Shown: positions 5,732 through 32,192 of the stretch, piece by piece | Position numbering within the stretch: position 1 is the stretch's first letter | How the letters are laid out: each line of letters opens with the position of its first letter | Virus record (IMG/VR): IMGVR_UViG_2851976983_000001 | Coordinates: 32,001 to 96,000 of that record | Length of the DNA stretch: 64,000 nucleotides | Reading direction: 5' to 3' (one strand) | DNA from: a virus | Lineage: Duplodnaviria; Heunggongvirae; Uroviricota; Caudoviricetes | Program-made: the position numbers and the translations under genes | Notes under the pieces: model-generated | Seen by the model: the letters and a program-made list of their open reading frames with translations, nothing else | What the model was told of the DNA's origin: nothing | Database searches by the model: none

Positions 5732-8700
5732 TTACTTATTTATTGTCTCCGCGATATCAGCCAGAATGGCCTCCAGTCGCTCTCCTTCTTCCGGTCGGAA
5801 GTACAGGATATTCGGGTTAAATCCGTAGAAGACGGTTGCATCAAGCTCTGGGAAGTACTCCTTACGACCAATCAGATCTGATGGTTTACTCTTATTGTTA
5901 AATAGTGCGGTTGAACGACTACCACACGTCAAAATGTAGGTTGGTCGTACAAGATTAATTTCTTCCCGCATAAAGTCTGTGAACTGGCCTATCTCGTCTT
6001 TGGTATAGTCTTTCTCTTTGTCCTTAACCTTCTTACAAACACCCGTGACATAAAGATCGCCCATGCGCAGATCTCCAACTGTCAGTAGTTTTGCCTTAAA
6101 GTCGTCGTATCCGTTCTCCATGAAGTAGCCGGTACGAGCGTCATTGCCGTTCGCATTGTCCAGAATGATCATGATTTTGGGTTTAATACCAATAGTCGGG
6201 CGTATCAACTCCTCACCCAAGCCCATTTCAGCCGCCATACGTGTCATGAGTACGTTGATTTCGGCAGAACGCTTAGGATTCATTTCGAACGGACGTGATG
6301 CTTTAACAGCGTCAATGATGAGATTGCCCATCAGTTCAGCCTGGTCGCGCAGTCGTTCAGGATCAGTTGCTGGCAGACTGCCTGGCTCAATTGACGCAAA
6401 AGCCCCTACTTTATGAAGCGACTCGCGTACACGACTGTTACATGCACGCTTCTCGACCGCTTCATCGAATTGTGCCACTGACTCGAATTTGCCACCAACT
6501 TTCTCACGCGCACGCATAATTGCCTGACAACCATTTTCAGAACAGCCTTTCACAGCAGAGAATGGCGCATACAGTGCCTGACTGCCGTCTTCGAGTGTGC
6601 GGATCTCAATTCGGTTAGATGACACATTAACGTCTGGTGGCAATACGCGAATGCCATAGGTCAGCGCATCCTTCACCAGCCCCTGATGCTTATCCTCGCC
6701 CAGAATGGTGAGCGCAGCTGCGAAGAACTCAGCAGGGTAGTGCGTCTTTAGCCACATAGACTGATAACTGATTAAAGAATAAGCAACGGAGTGTGATTTA
6801 TTGAACTGATAGGCTCCGTTTTTCTCAAATGCAGTCCATATCTCTTTTGCCTTCGTCTCAGACAGACCTGGATGTGACGTTGTAACGCGCACAACTGGCA
6901 TTGGCAGCTTCACTCCATGCTCCAACGCCTCTTCAACTGTCCTCAGAGTACCGTCCTCGCATTTAAAATGTTCTGCGCGATGAATCCGTTGTATTGCGCC
7001 ATTTTCAAGCTCTACGTCGATCCACCCAGCTTGAGCCTGAATGACAAATTTCTCACCCATGCTCCTCATCTTTTCCATGTTCTTCTTACCGATTGCTGAA
7101 CGCACACCATCCGCCTCGGCCATTGTGAAACCAGCAAGAAGCCTTGTTGCGTTCATCGTTTGTTCCTGATAGAGAATCACTCCATTTGTTTCAGAGGTCA
7201 GTTCATCCAAGACAGGATGTAGTGATGTAGGCGTCATAAATCCTTTCGCAACGGAAACATAGTCATCCAACATGCCGGATTGAATCGGTCCCGGTCGGAA
7301 GAGGGCGGTAGTTGCGACAACGGTTTTGAAACTCATTGGCTCGATGCCACCGCCCAGATCTTTAAGCAGCTTACGCATGGGGCCGGACTCCAGCTGGAAT
7401 ACGCCCTGCGTGTACCCTGCAGCGAACCCATCCAGAACCTTGCGATCGTCCAGTGGGATAGCGTCGAGATTGATGTCTTCACCGGTACTCTCTTTGATGT
7501 AGCGTTTCGCGCTATCCAGAAGATCGAGTGTTGCCAGACCGAGAACGTCCAACTTAATCAGCCCCATCGCCTCGCAGTAACGTTTATCGAACGCAATACA
7601 TCGAGCATTGCCACGCAGCTCGACGGGCGTGCGCTCTACTAATGGAACGCCAGCGACGATCATCCCCGCAGCGTGACGACCAAAACCACGCATCAGGCTT
7701 TGCAGCTTACACGCCGCTTTGAACGCTTCCGGGTTTTTCGTGGCGTATTTGTCCAGGCTGGCCAGTTGCTCGCGCAGCTCTTCCAGAGACAGGCTGTCGT
7801 CCTCCATATTCTTGAACTCTTTGGATACCGCCATATCCGCAGCATCGACACCGTAAATACGTGCAGTGTCACGCAGCGCAGATGCCGCGCCCAGATAGGT
7901 GAAGTTCGGAATGCCTGCAACGTAATCTTCGCCGTAGCGTTCATTCAGATACTCGATCACCTCATGGCGACGTGCCTGGCTGAAGTCCAAGTCCGCATCC
8001 GGCAAGTCGAGACGCTCAGGGTTGATGAAACGCTCAAACAGAAGACCGTGACGGATTGGGTCGACGTTGGTTATGCCTATGCACCACGCCACCAGAGAAC
8101 CGGCAGAGGAACCACGACCAGGCCCGACAGGAATGCCAGTTTCACGGCTGTGATTCATCAGATCGCGTACCATCAGGAAGTAACCACAGAATCCCAGGCG
8201 AGTCAGCGTGTCCATTTCGTACTTTAGCCGCTCAACATAAACCCTGTTCTCAGAAGCAGGTGGTGTGTATCCAAACTCTTTTGTGGTAAGACGTTTACGC
8301 AGCCCTGCAACAGCCAGTTTCATCAGCGTTGCAGGTTCGTCGTCTGCCATCTTGGGCAGTGCTGGTGGCAATTCATGCCAGCGCCATGTGCAGGCATCGA
8401 TAATGGAGTCCTGCGTTGTTGAGGCCATTGCAGCTGTTACCGGCACATCCATGCGAACGGAGAAGGCTTTAAGCGCCTCAAGGAGATGGCGACGACCATT
8501 GATGGCGTTATCTCGCTGGTGGGGGATACGCAGACGATGCGGCTGGTCGATTTTTATGTTGTTCGTAACCATGTGCGCAATGTCTTTAATGTCTGCATCG
8601 TCGATCGATTCGTAATAAGCGGGATAGAACGCCACTGGCTCTATTTTCAATGCGCTGGCGACTTTCATCGCCCGGACGTTAATCTGGTCGTAGAATGGGG

Positions 8701-9250
8701 TAGGGTGCGGATAAACCACACTATAGAAGTTGTCTTTTCCACCCGCTGTAATCAGTGTGCTTATGATTTTTGCAAAATCGTTGCGTTGGAACACGCTACC
8801 GATGTCGGAAGTAAGCAGGATGATGTTACCTTTGGCATATGTAGAAACCAACTGTTCGAGCGAGAGACGCGGTACAAAGTAGAACTGTTCTCGTGTGTTG
8901 GCCGCCGTCATTAGTTCGCAGATGTCGCGATATCCTTTCTCATTTTTAATTAGAGCGGTAAACGAGTAGTTACGTCCTCGCTCCAATGATTCCATACATC
9001 CCTTAGACTCTTTAGCAAGTTTAGCCCGGTGCTCGTATGTGGGATCATCAACGATGTTTAGTTTCACACCACAAATAACCGCCATGTCGTCACCAGCGGC
9101 ACGTTGTAGTGGAATAACGCTCGCAATATTCATGCTATCTGCTGAAATTACAGCGGTGTAGCCAGCTTCTCTGGCAATCTTCACCGCGTTTTCTGCTTTT
9201 AAAGCCGACTCCCCAAGTGAGAAGTCAGTTCGAACCATCAGTGCCTTCAT
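5732..9250 (-). CDS. DNA polymerase III alpha-type (DnaE-like, PHP domain) replicative polymerase
   Basis: 1172 aa; motifs GPGRGSSAGSLVAW, LLFERFINPER, FQLESGPM, ALFRPGP, ILYQEQ, FNKSHSVAYSLISYQSMWLKTHYPAEF align with E. coli DnaE core motifs. Confidence 0.85.
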   Translation of the reverse strand: MKALMVRTDFSLGESALKAENAVKIAREAGYTAVISADSMNIASVIPLQRAAGDDMAVICGVKLNIVDDPTYEHRAKLAKESKGCMESLERGRNYSFTALIKNEKGYRDICELMTAANTREQFYFVPRLSLEQLVSTYAKGNIILLTSDIGSVFQRNDFAKIISTLITAGGKDNFYSVVYPHPTPFYDQINVRAMKVASALKIEPVAFYPAYYESIDDADIKDIAHMVTNNIKIDQPHRLRIPHQRDNAINGRRHLLEALKAFSVRMDVPVTAAMASTTQDSIIDACTWRWHELPPALPKMADDEPATLMKLAVAGLRKRLTTKEFGYTPPASENRVYVERLKYEMDTLTRLGFCGYFLMVRDLMNHSRETGIPVGPGRGSSAGSLVAWCIGITNVDPIRHGLLFERFINPERLDLPDADLDFSQARRHEVIEYLNERYGEDYVAGIPNFTYLGAASALRDTARIYGVDAADMAVSKEFKNMEDDSLSLEELREQLASLDKYATKNPEAFKAACKLQSLMRGFGRHAAGMIVAGVPLVERTPVELRGNARCIAFDKRYCEAMGLIKLDVLGLATLDLLDSAKRYIKESTGEDINLDAIPLDDRKVLDGFAAGYTQGVFQLESGPMRKLLKDLGGGIEPMSFKTVVATTALFRPGPIQSGMLDDYVSVAKGFMTPTSLHPVLDELTSETNGVILYQEQTMNATRLLAGFTMAEADGVRSAIGKKNMEKMRSMGEKFVIQAQAGWIDVELENGAIQRIHRAEHFKCEDGTLRTVEEALEHGVKLPMPVVRVTTSHPGLSETKAKEIWTAFEKNGAYQFNKSHSVAYSLISYQSMWLKTHYPAEFFAAALTILGEDKHQGLVKDALTYGIRVLPPDVNVSSNRIEIRTLEDGSQALYAPFSAVKGCSENGCQAIMRAREKVGGKFESVAQFDEAVEKRACNSRVRESLHKVGAFASIEPGSLPATDPERLRDQAELMGNLIIDAVKASRPFEMNPKRSAEINVLMTRMAAEMGLGEELIRPTIGIKPKIMIILDNANGNDARTGYFMENGYDDFKAKLLTVGDLRMGDLYVTGVCKKVKDKEKDYTKDEIGQFTDFMREEINLVRPTYILTCGSRSTALFNNKSKPSDLIGRKEYFPELDATVFYGFNPNILYFRPEEGERLEAILADIAETINK

Positions 9251-28024: not shown

Positions 28025-28765
28025 TTAATTAGATAGGGGATCAATAAACCGCCGTGCTTCTTCCAGTTCTTCTGGAAAGTGGGCGGAAATAAGGCGCTCT
28101 GGAACGATTTCCATTAGCCAGATAGCGGAGAAAATTGCGCGTATGCGCTTGCTGCGGGGGATGGTGCGTAAACGCTCCAGAATCCACTCAAAATAGCTTT
28201 CCTGGATCGGGTTGAACTGCATGTCTCCCATATGCTTAAAGCTAACCAGAGAGTCATCCAGACGGGTTGTTGCGCGTCTGGCTAATTTCTCTTCAAATAT
28301 CTCAATCAGTTCTGGCTGCCATAAATGCTGTGGGCGCGGCAGCTTGTCCCACAGCCGTCGTGCAGCTGCGGAAAGAACGGTGGAGATAAAGTAGTCGTAT
28401 GAGCAGCAATAGCGGTCAGCAAACTGGCGTGCTTTCCATAGAGACGTTTTATTGGCAGTCGACAACTCCTGATAAGGCAGGCGTTTTAACCCGGTGGTGA
28501 ACGGAGCTGTTTCAAAGTGTTCTCGACCGTGCGTCAGCATGATATTTGAGTACTGACGTTTGTATGCCTCCGTAAAAAGACAGGTGGCCATGAGAGGATG
28601 CATGTCGCGGTAATCAAACCACTTCGTCTCGAAGAGTTCAGCCTCGTCTTTACAGCGCGACAAACCAATGTTTTCAGCGACCCACTTGTCCATAACAGCG
28701 GTATTCCACTCTGTCATGAAGTCGTACTGGTCGTTGTCGATGGTATCGAAAAAGATTTGGCTCAT
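28025..28765 (-). CDS. hypothetical protein (246 aa), possibly replication-associated
   Basis: ORF track; directly upstream of helicase on the same strand. Confidence 0.45.
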   Translation of the reverse strand: MSQIFFDTIDNDQYDFMTEWNTAVMDKWVAENIGLSRCKDEAELFETKWFDYRDMHPLMATCLFTEAYKRQYSNIMLTHGREHFETAPFTTGLKRLPYQELSTANKTSLWKARQFADRYCCSYDYFISTVLSAAARRLWDKLPRPQHLWQPELIEIFEEKLARRATTRLDDSLVSFKHMGDMQFNPIQESYFEWILERLRTIPRSKRIRAIFSAIWLMEIVPERLISAHFPEELEEARRFIDPLSN

Positions 28766-28881
28766 GTGGCTCGCCTGGTAGGTAGTTACTTACTTATCAC
28801 AATGAGCGAATGATAGCGACTGGTGGCAGTTTTTGGAAGTGGAAACGGAAGGGAGTTGTTCTGGTGGTGTCTTTTAAAAGA

Positions 28882-28936
28882 CCTGCTTCCGTATATATTT
28901 AATAAGTTACTTATTATTTATATATACAGAAGCAGG
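28882..28936. repeat. about 55 bp imperfect palindrome (CCTGCTTC ... ATAAGT-T-ACTTAT ... GAAGCAGG)
   Basis: Nested symmetric elements, in the divergent region upstream of the GIY-YIG gene. Confidence 0.5.
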
Positions 28937-29047
28937 CATAACTTGTCGTCTTAGACGCCCAGAAGCTCTACACTTTGAGCCTGTTAAATTGATTAAAAAC
29001 TTATGTGTAAAATAGAACGCATTAGTCAGTAGCTAAGAGATGCAATA

Positions 29048-29815
29048 ATGGACGATTTATCGGTATACGCGAGATCATTGGATAAGGCTAAATACTATGT
29101 TTACTGTCTCTATGATACAGAAGACAAGATGAAAAGACCGTTTTACATAGGAAAAGGCAAATCGACTCGTTGTCTCGATCACATCAAGTATCCCGATGAC
29201 TCTCCCAAATCCATGCGGATCAAAGAACTTTTGGCTAATAAAAAATTAGGCATAGATATACTTCGTCATGGTATGGATGAAACCACAGCCAAACTTGTTG
29301 AGGCGACATGCATCGACCTTATGGGGGTCGGAGAGCTTACGAATAAGGTTCGAGGAAGTGGTTCCATGATGGGCAGAATATCACTGGACGCCTACCATCA
29401 CTTAGTGCTGCAAGAGGAAACTGAAATTGCTCCTGAGCACGCCGGTCTTGCCTTCCTGCTAAACAGCACCTACAAGTCAGGAATGTCCGCTCTGGCATTA
29501 TATGAAGCTACGCGTGGCGTATGGGCAAAGGTTCCAAGAGACGAGAATCTCAAATATGCCTACGCTACATATGGTGGGCTGATAATGGAAGTTTATCAGA
29601 TTGAATGCTGGGTCAAAGCCGGTTCTCAGCAGTACTTTACAAGGGATATAGCTCTTGGCCCCGACACAAAACGTTATGAATTTGTTGGCAGAATAGCCGA
29701 TGAGCATATTAGAAAACTGTATGTAGGCAAATTAATCAAGAAGCCACCAAGCTACGGTAGCCCTTTTGTGAAGGTTGGGGTGGTTAGGACTGAACATAGT
29801 GTTAGCGCGGCATAA
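29048..29815 (+). CDS. GIY-YIG nuclease-domain protein (homing-endonuclease-like)
   Basis: 255 aa; N-terminal YYVYCLYDTEDKMKRPFYIGKGKSTRCLDH matches the GIY-x10-YIG pattern with downstream Arg; C-terminal domain unassigned. Confidence 0.55.
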   Translation: MDDLSVYARSLDKAKYYVYCLYDTEDKMKRPFYIGKGKSTRCLDHIKYPDDSPKSMRIKELLANKKLGIDILRHGMDETTAKLVEATCIDLMGVGELTNKVRGSGSMMGRISLDAYHHLVLQEETEIAPEHAGLAFLLNSTYKSGMSALALYEATRGVWAKVPRDENLKYAYATYGGLIMEVYQIECWVKAGSQQYFTRDIALGPDTKRYEFVGRIADEHIRKLYVGKLIKKPPSYGSPFVKVGVVRTEHSVSAA

Positions 29816-29833
29816 AGCTGACACAGTAGTTAT

Positions 29834-29870
29834 GCATTGGCGCAACGTACGCGCCAATGCATGATTTTTA
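29834..29870 (+). terminator. intrinsic terminator GCATTGGCGC-AACGTAC-GCGCCAATGC + T-rich tail
   Basis: Perfect 10 bp stem directly after the GIY-YIG stop. Confidence 0.6.
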
Positions 29871-30227
29871 ACCTTTTTTCATCAACTCTCGTTTGATTTC
29901 ATCGGTACGCATCGTGACATCGGCAGCTGTGATCGCCTCGTTAAGTTTCACGATGTCCTCGATTTCCTGCGGTGACTTCTCTGCCAGATGGAAAATGGCT
30001 GCGCGAATCACGTCTGAACGGGTGAACTTCTCGAAGCGAGGGATGAACTTCATCATCTCCAGCAGTTCGAAGTATTCGTCCTCCAGTGACATTGTGCGGC
30101 TTTTAATTTTCTCTTTGCCACGAGTCGGGCGTCCCTGTGGTCTGACTGGTTGGCGCAAAGGAGTTGTGTTCTTAGCCGGTGCATCAGGCTCTTTGCGCTT
30201 TGCTAGGTCACCCATTTTCATGGACAT
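29868..30227 (-). CDS. small DNA-binding partition protein candidate (ParG/ParB-like)
   Basis: 119 aa, basic N-terminus; start/stop overlap with the upstream ParA gene. Confidence 0.45.
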   Translation of the reverse strand: MSMKMGDLAKRKEPDAPAKNTTPLRQPVRPQGRPTRGKEKIKSRTMSLEDEYFELLEMMKFIPRFEKFTRSDVIRAAIFHLAEKSPQEIEDIVKLNEAITAADVTMRTDEIKRELMKKG

Positions 30228-30895
30228 TATTCTTCTTCCTCCAGACTCAACAGATAATCTACAAATTCTTCAAACTCGGCTTCCGCCTTTTTGTCGCGCT
30301 CGCTACCGGTCATTTCAAAGATAGAACGACCAGACTCTTCCGCATCATCATAGACGTTGCGGTTATATAGATTGACTGGCGCAGACTCGATGCCAAACGT
30401 CTCAACAATCTCTTTAGCCGCCAGAATGCGAGACACTTGTGATGGCAAAGCCGGGCACTGGTTCATGACCGCGCGGACCTTCACTTTATCGTTTACATTA
30501 CGAACATTGTCGATAATAGGATCGATGTCACGCAGAGATTTCAAATCACGACGCTTAGGACGAAGCGGGATAATGATAACGTCGGCCATCAGCATCGCTT
30601 GTCGCTGAATTTCGGAGTCAAAGCCACCAGCATCTACCACTACATACTCAGCTCTACCCTGAAGCGATTTTAGGTGCTTAATGATGTCATCCTGAACGTA
30701 TGCAAAAGGAATCAGCTCAAGGTCTTCGTTCTGTCGACGGTCTTCACACCAGCTCGTTGTCGTGCGCTGAATATCTATATCGGTGATATAAACCTTCTTC
30801 TTCTTTTTGACTTTCAGGCAAACGGCAATTTGCTGGGCAACGGTGGATTTGCCAGGCCCGCCCTTTGTGCCGCCAACCACAAAGATCTTGGTCAT
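30227..30895 (-). CDS. parA: ParA-family partition ATPase
   Basis: 222 aa; deviant Walker A VVGGTKGGPGKST. Confidence 0.8.
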   Translation of the reverse strand: MTKIFVVGGTKGGPGKSTVAQQIAVCLKVKKKKKVYITDIDIQRTTTSWCEDRRQNEDLELIPFAYVQDDIIKHLKSLQGRAEYVVVDAGGFDSEIQRQAMLMADVIIIPLRPKRRDLKSLRDIDPIIDNVRNVNDKVKVRAVMNQCPALPSQVSRILAAKEIVETFGIESAPVNLYNRNVYDDAEESGRSIFEMTGSERDKKAEAEFEEFVDYLLSLEEEE

Positions 30896-31044: not shown

Positions 31045-31075
31045 AAAAAGGCGACCAAAGTCGCCTGATTTTTAA
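31045..31075. terminator. bidirectional terminator AGGCGAC-CAAA-GTCGCCT
   Basis: A-run before and T-run after the stem. Confidence 0.5.
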
Positions 31076-31824
31076 TCTTTTAGGTATAAACCTACTGGAG
31101 TTCTTGTTTTGCGGGAGATGATAAGTACGATAAATTTCTGAACGTTAACTTGCACTTTGTTTGGGAGCCAAGAGCTTAACTCTGCATCAAGCAACAATCC
31201 TCTGTTCCACGGCAAAAATCCGGTTTCTTTCCCCATCCCGTACTCGCCTAACACATCCTCGAACGTTTCTGTTTTGGCATTGTATATACGCACATCGCCG
31301 GTTCGCATGAGAGGCCCTGCCCAGATCTTAGCACCAGGAATGGTTTGTGTATCGTCGCAGACTAAATGCTCATACCAATGAAGAAGAAAGAGATAGGTAC
31401 GGTGACACAATCCTCGCTGACGACGCTCTCTGACAGTTTCGACACCAGCTACCTGGTAACATTCGATCTCATTACCGTCTTCAACAAAACTATATTCACG
31501 CAGAGCTATCCTACCAGCGATCGTATTTTTGTTTTCGTCCAGAAGCCCGGACTGGAGCACCTCTTTGATAATCTCTTCTTCAGGGGCATCTTCATCCGCT
31601 CGATCTAAGATGAATTCGCTCAGGTCGCCTTGGTCGCGCGCACCTACACGTTCCATAGAGACATACAGGCAAATGTCATCTTCTGGTTCAATGATTTCAA
31701 TTTCTGAGATTTTATAGAGGGAGGCTTCATTGATAAGAAAGCCAAAACGAACAACACGAGTCTCCCCTTTATGAGGAAACTCGCTTAGATCTTTTGAATA
31801 TGCGCTATCTAGTGTAGGAGCCAT
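31072..31824 (-). CDS. hypothetical protein (250 aa)
   Basis: ORF track. Confidence 0.45.
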   Translation of the reverse strand: MAPTLDSAYSKDLSEFPHKGETRVVRFGFLINEASLYKISEIEIIEPEDDICLYVSMERVGARDQGDLSEFILDRADEDAPEEEIIKEVLQSGLLDENKNTIAGRIALREYSFVEDGNEIECYQVAGVETVRERRQRGLCHRTYLFLLHWYEHLVCDDTQTIPGAKIWAGPLMRTGDVRIYNAKTETFEDVLGEYGMGKETGFLPWNRGLLLDAELSSWLPNKVQVNVQKFIVLIISRKTRTPVGLYLKD

Positions 31825-32192
31825 TTTGTAGCAGAATCATCAGCCTTAACCGTGCTGACAATGCTACCATGATTGCGTAAGAAGCGGCGAATAGAATGTT
31901 CAATAACCTCCGAAAAAGCCTCGATAAAACGAGACAGCTCAGGGTACTGTTTAGCTGGCTTGACTACAAAACGAACACGACCATTCAGGTAAATTGCTTC
32001 AGCTAATGGCTTCACGCTTGCACCAGCGCGCTCAACATCGTCTTTGAAGGTAACGATGAAGCGTGAGTCTTCCGGTTCAATAGCGTCATTATTGAGCTTA
32101 CGTACTTCAAGCTTGTGCTGATTCAGCACATGAGTCTCGATAATACTCGTGCAATCGCGAATAGTTTGTATAGAACGTTTCTCGTTCAGCAT
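31809..32192 (-). CDS. hypothetical protein (127 aa)
   Basis: ORF track. Confidence 0.45.
   Translation of the reverse strand: MLNEKRSIQTIRDCTSIIETHVLNQHKLEVRKLNNDAIEPEDSRFIVTFKDDVERAGASVKPLAEAIYLNGRVRFVVKPAKQYPELSRFIEAFSEVIEHSIRRFLRNHGSIVSTVKADDSATKWLLH

What the first reader, a model, noticed from the sequence alone, without database searches (positions are those of the whole stretch)
28882..29870. GIY-YIG gene as a self-contained plus-strand cassette
The 255 aa protein has an N-terminal GIY-YIG pattern (YVYCL...FYIGKG...R..DH) and a C-terminal domain of about 150 aa that I cannot assign. The gene is bounded upstream by a 55 bp palindrome and downstream by a perfect 10 bp terminator, and sits between the replication and partition modules. 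It may be a homing endonuclease that can mobilise itself, or a nuclease effector of a defence or exclusion function.
Basis: partly seen in the sequence, partly recalled or inferred. Interest (0 to 1): 0.45.

Follow-up and report, generated by a model that had tools for sequence, protein, structure and literature searches.

The report
Phage-plasmid gene cutting modified phage DNA
The gene is a divergent, untested member of a known single-gene anti-phage family (PD-T4-3/CMoRE, a nuclease that cuts phage DNA carrying modified cytosines), and it sits in a swap-in slot of an E. coli phage-plasmid where relatives carry other defence genes, so it is an ordinary defence cargo gene and not a self-mobilising homing endonuclease.

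Summary
A 255-aa ORF (29048-29815, +) has a GIY-YIG N-terminus, an imperfect 55-bp palindrome upstream and a perfect 12-bp (not 10-bp) hairpin plus T-run downstream. It lies between the replication genes and parA.

The mobile unit is 28937-29869. The palindrome belongs to the conserved backbone. Across 79 related loci this slot is empty in 5 and holds 18 alternative cargoes, including PD-T7-5, DUF2971/PDC-S31 and a KAP NTPase. The cassette is about 98% identical in backbones whose flanks are 84-90% identical, so it is exchanged by recombination.

The homing-endonuclease reading is not supported. This is a new member of a known kind, of low to moderate interest.

The parts
28882..28936 (.). A 55-bp imperfect AT-rich palindrome with G+C-rich ends (CCTGCTTC...GAAGCAGG). 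It is a conserved backbone element that marks the left edge of the variable slot and is not part of the cassette. On the - strand it is followed by TCTTTTAAAAG, so it is probably the intrinsic terminator of the parA operon and any co-directional cargo (inferred).
   Evidence: -30.5 kcal/mol on the - strand, z -9.4; unique in the window. Conserved in Cyrano, CMS-2020a, SSU5, and in empty and otherwise-filled loci, with homology ending right after ...CAGG.
28937..29869 (+). The exchangeable 933-bp cargo cassette: leader, PD-T4-3/CMoRE-like gene and its own terminator hairpin.
   Evidence: Homology to relatives with other cargo stops at 28936/28946 and resumes at 29870. The same 921-937-bp unit is in 26 of 79 loci. 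It is 98-98.6% identical in backbones whose flanks are 84-90% identical. It is in 133 PLSDB plasmids and 104 of 5426 complete E. coli genomes, never on a chromosome.
28937..29047 (+). A 111-bp leader that presumably holds the gene's own promoter, since the gene is divergent from the neighbouring 246-aa gene. A Shine-Dalgarno-like AAGAG lies at 29035-29039, 8 nt before the ATG.
   Evidence: Sequence. No consensus sigma-70 promoter was found by the simple scan, so the promoter is inferred, not shown.
29048..29815 (+). ORF of 255 aa, a PD-T4-3/CMoRE-family modification-dependent (type IV) restriction endonuclease. [quoted passage not shown] A low-confidence linker spans aa 94-107. The C-terminal modification-sensing domain is about aa 108-245 (nt 29369-29782).
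29832..29869 (+). The cassette's own intrinsic-terminator-like hairpin (perfect 12-bp stem 29832-29843 / 29851-29862, 7-nt loop) plus T-run. It is convergent with the end of the parA operon.
   Evidence: -25.1 kcal/mol, z -5.5. It lies inside the cassette-specific sequence. The consensus scan did not call it.
29868..30895 (-). Right-hand backbone flank: a 119-aa ORF (29868-30227, putative partition adaptor by position only) and ParA (30227-30895). The variable slot begins directly after the stop codon of the 119-aa ORF.
   Evidence: ParA/MipZ/CbiA Pfam hits. No family hit for the 119-aa ORF.
28025..28765 (-). Left-hand backbone flank: a conserved 246-aa protein of unknown function at the end of the helicase-primase block. 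It was used as the anchor to collect 80 related loci.
   Evidence: No Pfam, NCBIfam or PADLOC hit.

Best explanation
The gene encodes a stand-alone, single-protein, modification-dependent (type IV) restriction endonuclease of the PD-T4-3/CMoRE family. It is carried as defence cargo by an SSU5-type phage-plasmid of E. coli.

The mechanism is inferred by homology to the solved and assayed enzymes. The C-terminal domain (about aa 108-245) binds DNA that carries hypermodified bases, which are 5-hydroxymethyl- or glucosyl-hydroxymethyl-cytosine in the characterised members. The N-terminal GIY-YIG domain (Y17, Y19, Y33, R41, E85, N99) then cleaves that DNA. A short acidic loop (Y48-P-D-D-S-P53) probably helps keep the enzyme off unmodified host and plasmid DNA. 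The result is direct destruction of incoming T-even-like phage genomes, without abortive infection, which protects both the host cell and the resident phage-plasmid.

The gene travels as a 933-bp unit (28937-29869) with its own leader and terminator. It sits in a cargo slot between the stop codon of the parA-operon's last gene and a conserved backbone palindrome. Sister elements swap this slot's content by recombination in the conserved flanks.

Shown here: family membership, conserved catalytic residues, fold, slot structure, cargo diversity and cassette exchange.
Inferred: nuclease activity, the modified base recognised, the phage range, the promoter, and the role of the palindrome.
For: Family membership:
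- PADLOC PD-T4-3 model hit, E 1.3e-23, covering aa 11-231 and model positions 11-238 of 256.
- phmmer against PDB finds only 9u7u/9u75, E 2e-15 over both domains. A profile of 35 homologues gives E 4.6e-23.
- The AF2 model (mean pLDDT 82) hits the four PD-T4-3 crystal entries first by Foldseek (E 7e-12 to 1e-10, probability 1.0, 244-268 aligned columns).
- GIYxY-YIG tyrosines Y17/Y19/Y33 and R41, E85 and N99 align with the residues whose mutation abolishes CMoRE activity. They are invariant in 35 homologues of 50-79% identity (PMC12923530).

Family function in the literature:
- Protection against T2/T4/T6, dependence on cytosine modification, CN11/N9G cleavage and no abortive infection (PMC12923530).
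- A 48%-identical homologue from Capnocytophaga behaves the same way (PMC12366544).
- The system is active in a native E. coli host (bioRxiv 10.1101/2024.12.20.629700).
- DefenseFinder reports PD-T4-3 in SSU5 clade J phage-plasmids of E. coli and Shigella (bioRxiv 10.1101/2025.09.12.675607).

Context:
- The same slot holds PD-T7-5 (E 4.5e-139), PDC-S31/DUF2971 and PDC-S49/KAP NTPase in sister elements.
- 5 of 79 loci are empty.
- Chromosomal homologues are single stand-alone genes.
- 23 of 25 other copies keep the full-length ORF with 0-2 aa changes. dN/dS is about 0.1, from very few differences.
Against: - Identity to the two solved CMoRE enzymes is only about 33%, and no member of this roughly 246-255-aa subfamily is known to me to have been assayed.
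- The autoinhibitory acidic loop is 5 residues shorter and has 2 rather than 4 consecutive acidic residues.
- The 5hmC contact in the crystal is a main-chain oxygen (Y127), which aligns with a variable linker residue here (E123). Sequence therefore cannot confirm which modification is read.
- Global TM-scores to the crystal structures are low (0.35-0.39), because the two domains are oriented differently in the model. The linker at aa 94-107 has pLDDT below 50.
- No consensus promoter was found, so expression is unproven.
- One copy (L055) is N-terminally truncated.
Confidence: 0.85

Rival explanations
1. Same family and same defence role, but a different or broader specificity. This short-loop subfamily would read another hypermodified base rather than, or in addition to, 5hmC/5ghmC. 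Candidates include arabinosyl-hmC or the carbamoylmethyl-adenine of Mu.
For: Only about 33% identity to the assayed enzymes. There are indels in the sensor domain: a 4-aa insertion (KSGM) and a 6-8-aa deletion. The acidic loop is shorter. PD-T4-3Capno also cuts Mu DNA, so plasticity within the family is documented (PMC12366544). PD-T4-3 from strain NILS69 spares some Tevenvirinae genera (bioRxiv 10.1101/2024.12.20.629700).
Confidence: 0.25
2. A free-standing GIY-YIG homing endonuclease of the Seg or I-TevI type. It would cut the empty slot of sister phage-plasmids and be copied in by repair.
Against: - The C-terminal domain is the CMoRE sensor, not a NUMOD, HTH or zinc-finger DNA-binding module. 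Pfam finds nothing else at E up to 1.
- The I-TevI similarity is the generic GIY-YIG core, equal to that of UvrC and EndoII.
- Seventeen unrelated cargo types without a recognisable homing nuclease occupy and swap in the same slot.
- Close homologues sit alone in chromosomes of Providencia and Shewanella.
- Mosaic breakpoints differ between loci, as expected for ordinary homologous recombination.
Confidence: 0.04
3. A housekeeping DNA-repair or structure-specific nuclease, as the RefSeq name 'LEM-3-like GIY-YIG domain-containing protein' might suggest, serving phage-plasmid replication or recombination.
Against: The Pfam match covers only aa 32-104, which is the nuclease core. The gene is dispensable: it is absent from most sister elements, which replicate without it. 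The full-length match is to a defence enzyme.
Confidence: 0.03
4. A decaying or silent passenger with no current function.
For: No consensus promoter was found. One copy (L055) lacks the first 27 codons.
Against: 23 of 25 other copies keep the full-length ORF with 0-2 amino-acid changes. A copy with 88% nucleotide identity (L051) keeps the reading frame and all motifs. dN/dS is about 0.1, from very few differences. Catalytic residues are invariant across the subfamily.
Confidence: 0.05

Closest known systems
CMoRE / PD-T4-3 of E. coli O157:H7 and APEC O1 (PDB 9U75, 9U7U; PMC12923530); first found in E. coli ECOR68 (PMC9519451)
   Same: Single-gene system of similar length (255 aa here against about 257). 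[quoted passage not shown] Homology over the full length and the same folds.
   Different: About 33% identity. The acidic autoinhibitory loop is 5 residues shorter (DD instead of DDDD or DDDE). The beta1-beta2 loop is 2 aa longer, a 4-aa 'HVIH' hairpin segment is missing, and the sensor domain has indels. It is carried on a phage-plasmid. It has not been assayed.
PD-T4-3Capno (Capnocytophaga homologue; PMC12366544)
   Same: Same family. It shows that distant homologues (48% identity to the reference) still give modification-dependent defence in E. coli.
   Different: It also cuts Mu DNA at high concentration.
Other type IV modification-dependent restriction enzymes with a reader domain plus a nuclease (VcaM4I EVE-HNH, McrBC, PvuRts1I/AbaSI, GmrSD)
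   Different: A different nuclease fold (GIY-YIG rather than HNH or PD-(D/E)xK).
Free-standing GIY-YIG homing endonucleases (I-TevI, T4 Seg proteins)
   Same: GIY-YIG catalytic core, a small gene lying between conserved genes of a phage genome, and a presence/absence polymorphism.
   Different: No homing-type DNA-binding domain. The slot is shared with many non-nuclease cargoes. The full-length homology is to a defence enzyme.
Defence hotspots of temperate phages and satellites, such as the P2/P4 hotspots (PMC13586616)
   Same: A fixed position between conserved genes where unrelated defence genes replace one another by recombination in conserved flanks.
   Different: Here the slot lies between the end of a plasmid partition operon and a conserved palindrome in an SSU5-type phage-plasmid. 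I found no description of this particular slot in the papers I searched.

Membership tests
PD-T4-3 / CMoRE (single-gene type IV restriction endonuclease) | Significant full-length match to the family profile | tested here: met
   PADLOC PDLC04031, E 1.3e-23, protein aa 11-231, model positions 11-238 of 256. A profile of 35 homologues against 9u7u gives E 4.6e-23 over positions 10-232.
PD-T4-3 / CMoRE (single-gene type IV restriction endonuclease) | Two-domain architecture: N-terminal GIY-YIG nuclease plus the family-specific C-terminal modification-sensing domain | tested here: met
   [not shown]
PD-T4-3 / CMoRE (single-gene type IV restriction endonuclease) | 'GIYxY-YIG' motif with three tyrosines (CMoRE Y17, Y19, Y31) | tested here: met
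   Y17-V-Y19 and Y33 align with them and are invariant in 35 homologues.
PD-T4-3 / CMoRE (single-gene type IV restriction endonuclease) | Catalytic arginine and glutamate of the GIY-YIG active site | tested here: met
   R41 and E85, and also H45 and N99, are aligned and invariant.
PD-T4-3 / CMoRE (single-gene type IV restriction endonuclease) | Inserted negatively charged alpha2-alpha3 loop (four consecutive acidic residues; the paper says 'most' members have it) | tested here: inconclusive
   A loop is present but is 5 residues shorter, with only D50-D51 (YPDDSP). The whole subfamily has this short, mildly acidic loop.
PD-T4-3 / CMoRE (single-gene type IV restriction endonuclease) | Single-component, stand-alone gene | tested here: met
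   The 933-bp cassette holds this ORF only. Chromosomal homologues are isolated genes among housekeeping genes.
PD-T4-3 / CMoRE (single-gene type IV restriction endonuclease) | Cleaves 5hmC/5ghmC DNA but not C or 5mC DNA, and protects against T-even phages without abortive infection | not testable with these tools
   This needs plaque assays and nuclease assays. The crystal contact to 5hmC is a main-chain atom (Y127) that aligns with variable E123, so the sequence gives no information (PMC12923530).
PD-T4-3 / CMoRE (single-gene type IV restriction endonuclease) | Tetramer (dimer of dimers) needed for function (V92/L96 interface, beta1-beta2 loop) | not tested
   The equivalent residues are V84 and C88, and the beta1-beta2 loop is 2 aa longer. 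No multimer model was made.
GIY-YIG homing endonucleases (I-TevI / Seg type) | GIY-YIG catalytic domain | tested here: met
   [not shown]
GIY-YIG homing endonucleases (I-TevI / Seg type) | C-terminal sequence-tolerant DNA-binding modules (NUMOD, HTH, zinc finger) | tested here: not met
   No such Pfam domain at E up to 1. The C-terminal domain matches the CMoRE sensor instead.
GIY-YIG homing endonucleases (I-TevI / Seg type) | Presence/absence polymorphism at one site that is attributable to the endonuclease itself | tested here: not met
   Empty sites exist (5 of 79), but 17 other unrelated cargo types use the same slot.
GIY-YIG homing endonucleases (I-TevI / Seg type) | Cleaves the endonuclease-free allele and is copied into it | not testable with these tools
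   This needs an in-vitro cleavage assay on the empty-slot sequence (for example that of L007) and co-residence crosses.
LEM-3 / ANKLE1-type GIY-YIG nucleases (the RefSeq name) | LEM-3-like GIY-YIG domain (Pfam PF22945) together with the ankyrin/LEM architecture of the eukaryotic proteins | tested here: not met
   The domain-level hit is just above the cut-off (30.1 against 27 bits, aa 32-104). No other domains of that architecture were found. The name describes the nuclease core only.

The most novel reading that the evidence does not exclude
This short-loop subfamily is about 33% identical to the assayed enzymes, is common on E. coli SSU5-type phage-plasmids and is scattered through gammaproteobacterial chromosomes. 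It may read a different hypermodified base, or a broader set, than 5hmC/5ghmC. In addition, the slot anchored by the palindrome may be a dedicated defence-cassette exchange site. Its unassigned occupants would then be new anti-phage genes: a 351-374-aa protein in 17 loci, a pair of small membrane proteins in 9 loci, and a lipoprotein.
Probability: 0.25. Interest if true: 0.5.

Novelty: new member of a known kind. Interest (0 to 1): 0.27.

Why it matters
The gene turns a "hypothetical / LEM-3-like GIY-YIG" annotation, present in about 2% of complete E. coli genomes (104 of 5426, always on phage-plasmids), into a specific and testable function: restriction of phages with hypermodified DNA, such as T-even phages. 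That bears on phage-therapy host range and on why SSU5-type phage-plasmids persist in clinical lineages.

The slot it occupies is a compact natural catalogue of swap-in genes. Several of them (PD-T7-5, DUF2971/PDC-S31, KAP NTPase) are known or candidate defences, and several have no assignment at all, so they are cheap candidates for defence-gene discovery.

A divergent CMoRE with a shorter safety loop could also be of use as a 5hmC-mapping reagent if its specificity differs. None of this changes current concepts, because both the family and its mechanism are already published.

Tried and rejected
- NCBIfam gave no hit for the protein or its neighbours.
- PHROGs only returned an unknown-function family (phrog_5356).
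- Rfam found nothing meaningful at the palindrome or hairpin. The only hit was a chance miRNA match at E 0.76.
- The consensus promoter/terminator scan found nothing in 28700-30000, so the promoter stays unassigned.
- I looked for direct repeats, target-site duplications or att-like sites at the cassette edges and in the empty-slot spacer. There were none. I therefore rejected transposition or site-specific integration as the exchange mechanism.
- I looked for copies of the cassette in other contexts. The odd-sized records (63-kb E. albertii plasmid, IncF/IncHI cointegrates) keep the link to the 119-aa ORF, with parA beyond it where the backbone survives. In two of them (L004, L006) the backbone is interrupted by IS elements (IS26, IS3), so there is no independent mobility.
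- Searching the supplements of PMC12366544 for a tested member of this subfamily failed because no supplementary files are held.
- The Vassallo 2022 text does not name the location of PD-T4-3. The NILS69 paper does not mention a phage-plasmid.
- I considered the palindrome as a centromere or origin repeat. It is single-copy in the window and lies 31-32 bp after the operon's last stop codon in empty loci, with a T-run on that strand. A terminator is therefore the simpler reading, though it is untested.
Full report
**What is in the sequence**

An imperfect 55-bp palindrome lies upstream at 28882-28936. Its outer 17-nt arms are 94% complementary and its inner 16-nt arms 88%. As RNA it folds far better than shuffled sequence: -23.3 kcal/mol on the + strand (z -6.2) and -30.5 kcal/mol on the - strand (z -9.4). 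It is single-copy in the window.

A perfect 12-bp stem lies downstream (29832-29843 / 29851-29862, 7-nt loop), followed by GATTTTT. The simple consensus scan called neither a promoter nor a terminator in 28700-30000.

The gene runs opposite to its neighbours. To the left, all on the - strand, are primase, a DnaB-like helicase and a 246-aa protein. To the right, also on the - strand, are a 119-aa ORF and ParA.

**What the replicon is**

The 2.9-kb region is 100% identical to E. coli plasmids CP025897 and NZ_CP025870. It is 98.7-98.8% identical to Escherichia phages CMS-2020a and PhiR41_1. Its parA side is 86% identical to Salmonella phage SSU5. The window is therefore an SSU5-type phage-plasmid.

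**What the protein is**

- Pfam sees only the nuclease core (LEM-3_GIY-YIG, aa 32-104, 30.1 bits against a cut-off of 27).
- PHROGs gives an unknown-function family. RefSeq calls the protein "LEM-3-like GIY-YIG domain-containing protein".
- The PADLOC model for the defence system PD-T4-3 matches aa 11-231 at E 1.3e-23.
- The only PDB sequences matched are 9U7U/9U7Z and 9U75/9U8D, at E 2e-15 over both domains. A profile of 35 homologues raises this to E 4.6e-23.
- An AlphaFold2 model has mean pLDDT 82.4. Only the linker (aa 94-107) and the C-terminal tail are poor.
- By Foldseek the model hits the four PD-T4-3 crystal entries first (E 7e-12 to 1e-10, probability 1.0). UvrC GIY-YIG domains follow.
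- The low global TM-scores (0.35-0.39) reflect a different relative placement of the two domains across a flexible linker. That linker is also disordered in the crystals (PMC12923530).

**What the family does (from the literature)**

- PD-T4-3 was recovered in a functional selection from E. coli as a GIY-YIG single-gene defence (PMC9519451).
[quoted passage not shown] It protects against T2, T4 and T6 by about 5 logs without abortive infection, and binds and cuts only 5hmC or glucosyl-5hmC DNA (consensus CN11/N9G).
- It has a "GIYxY-YIG" motif (Y17, Y19, Y31) with catalytic Arg and Glu, all needed for activity. It carries an acidic lid loop whose neutralisation makes the enzyme toxic. It works as a tetramer and binds 5hmC on the C-terminal domain (PMC12923530).
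- A Capnocytophaga homologue behaves likewise and also cuts Mu DNA at high dose (PMC12366544).
- The system is active in a native clinical E. coli strain (bioRxiv 10.1101/2024.12.20.629700).
- A survey using DefenseFinder already lists PD-T4-3, together with PD-T7-5, among the systems on clade J SSU5 phage-plasmids of E. coli and Shigella (bioRxiv 10.1101/2025.09.12.675607).

**Membership test**

- The three tyrosines (Y17, Y19, Y33) and R41, E85 and N99 align with the CMoRE residues. They are invariant across 35 homologues of 50-79% identity.
- The system is single-gene. The cassette holds only this ORF, and homologues in Providencia and Shewanella chromosomes are isolated genes among housekeeping genes.
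- The differences are real. Identity to the two solved enzymes is about 33%. The acidic loop is 5 residues shorter, with DD instead of DDDD or DDDE. The beta1-beta2 loop is 2 aa longer, a 4-aa hairpin segment is missing, and the sensor domain has indels.
- The crystal contact to 5hmC is a main-chain atom that aligns with a variable residue here. Sequence therefore cannot tell which base is read.
- I file the protein as a member of the family, in a divergent and apparently unassayed subfamily. The 5hmC/5ghmC specificity is inferred, not shown.

**The "cassette" and its boundaries**

Homology with Cyrano, CMS-2020a (CP054387) and SSU5 runs through the palindrome. It stops at 28936-28946 and resumes at 29870, which lies within the stop codon (29868-29870) of the 119-aa ORF. 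The exchangeable unit is thus 28937-29869 (933 bp). The palindrome is backbone, and the 12-bp hairpin is cassette.

I collected 80 related loci from IMG/VR, using the 246-aa protein as anchor. Both flanks could be located in 79 sequences, counting the window and four phage or plasmid records.
- The slot is empty in 5, with a 31-32-bp spacer between the palindrome and the stop codon.
- It holds 18 sequence types in the rest. This GIY-YIG cassette is in 26.

The other occupants are:
- PD-T7-5 (PADLOC E 4.5e-139);
- DUF2971 proteins matching PADLOC candidate PDC-S31, including Cyrano CYRAN_30 and SSU5_037;
- a 567-aa KAP-type P-loop NTPase matching PDC-S49;
- proteins with no hit at all: a 351-374-aa protein, a pair of small membrane proteins and a lipoprotein.

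The palindrome is conserved in all of them, and homology ends right after its right arm.

In empty loci the palindrome lies 31-32 bp after the operon's last stop codon. On that strand it is followed by TCTTTTAAAAG. I therefore read it as the parA-operon terminator, with cargo inserted between the stop codon and the terminator. This is an inference.

**How the cassette moves**

In eight loci (L046-L050, L052, L053, L055) one or both flanking genes are only 82-93% identical to the window. The cassette itself is 96.9-99.6% identical. In four of these (L047-L049, L053) both flanks are diverged.

A 50-bp mismatch profile shows a sharp change at about 28850, just before the palindrome. On the right the change is more gradual, inside the 119-aa ORF. 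Breakpoints differ between loci: L046 on the left, L052 and L055 on the right.

The edges carry no repeats, duplications or att-like sites. This is the pattern of homologous recombination in conserved flanks. It is not transposition or site-specific integration.

The cassette occurs in 133 PLSDB plasmids and in 104 of 5426 complete E. coli genomes, always on plasmids and never on a chromosome. Records of unusual size still keep it next to the 119-aa ORF, with parA beyond it where the backbone survives. In two of them the backbone is interrupted by IS26 or IS3.

The ORF is intact in 24 of 25 other copies. 23 of these differ by 0-2 aa. A copy at 88% nucleotide identity (L051) keeps the frame and all motifs. 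dN/dS is about 0.1, though from very few differences. One copy (L055) is N-terminally truncated.

**Homing endonuclease or defence nuclease?**

The polymorphism and the flank co-conversion could look like homing. Several points count against it:
- the C-terminal domain is not a homing-type DNA-binding module;
- the same slot exchanges 17 other cargoes that have no such nuclease;
- homologues sit alone in chromosomes.

I give homing about 4%. Defence by modification-dependent restriction gets about 85%. Within that, about a quarter is for a specificity different from or broader than 5hmC/5ghmC.

**Novelty and interest**

The family, its structure and its mechanism are published. Its presence on these phage-plasmids has been noted by an automated screen. 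What is new here is modest:
- placement of this particular, widely distributed gene in a divergent short-loop subfamily;
- the exact cassette boundaries;
- the description of a palindrome-anchored cargo slot with 18 alternative contents and empty alleles.

I did not find this slot described in the papers I searched.

Overall this is a new member of a known kind, with interest of about 0.27.

Noticed in passing
window 28937-29869 slot; related loci L001-L086 (for example L019 cargo ORF 106-1179; L056 and L003 membrane pair; L075): The slot between the stop codon of the 119-aa ORF and the backbone palindrome holds 18 cargo types. Several have no Pfam or PADLOC hit. These are a 351-374-aa plus-strand protein (17 loci), a pair of small membrane proteins of about 214 and 136 aa (9 loci; equal to SSU5_035/036), and a 225-aa lipoprotein (1 locus). 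All are candidates for untested defence or exclusion genes.
   Followed up: partly
[not shown]
   Followed up: partly
L055 (IMGVR_UViG_3300029577_000291), cargo ORF 181-867: This copy of the GIY-YIG gene has a cluster of substitutions around the start. Its longest ORF begins at the equivalent of M28, so it lacks Y17 and Y19. It is probably an inactivated copy.
   Followed up: partly
window 31072-32192 (- strand), right of parA: This is a second variable spot. The window has two genes (250 aa and 127 aa) with no Pfam or PADLOC hit. At the same place, phage Cyrano and plasmids NZ_CP034165 and NZ_CP029493 carry a DUF1778 + GNAT (KacAT-like) toxin-antitoxin pair.
   Followed up: partly
window 24324-25376 (+): A 350-aa ORF lies on the strand opposite to the adjacent replication genes. 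It has no Pfam or PADLOC hit and may be another cargo gene.
   Followed up: no
window 29868-30227 (-): The 119-aa ORF downstream of parA is annotated 'RelE/ParE putative toxin' in phage Cyrano. It has no supporting family hit here. By position it is more likely the partition adaptor (ParB/ParG-like) of the ParA system.
   Followed up: partly
L087/L088 (Providencia chromosomes), gene at 8001-8750: A 75%-identical chromosomal homologue sits near mutS and an rpoS-like sigma factor gene. From general knowledge, this region is polymorphic in enterobacteria. Its neighbours on one side vary between strains: a Fic protein and unknown genes in L088, against mutS/miaE in L087.
   Followed up: no
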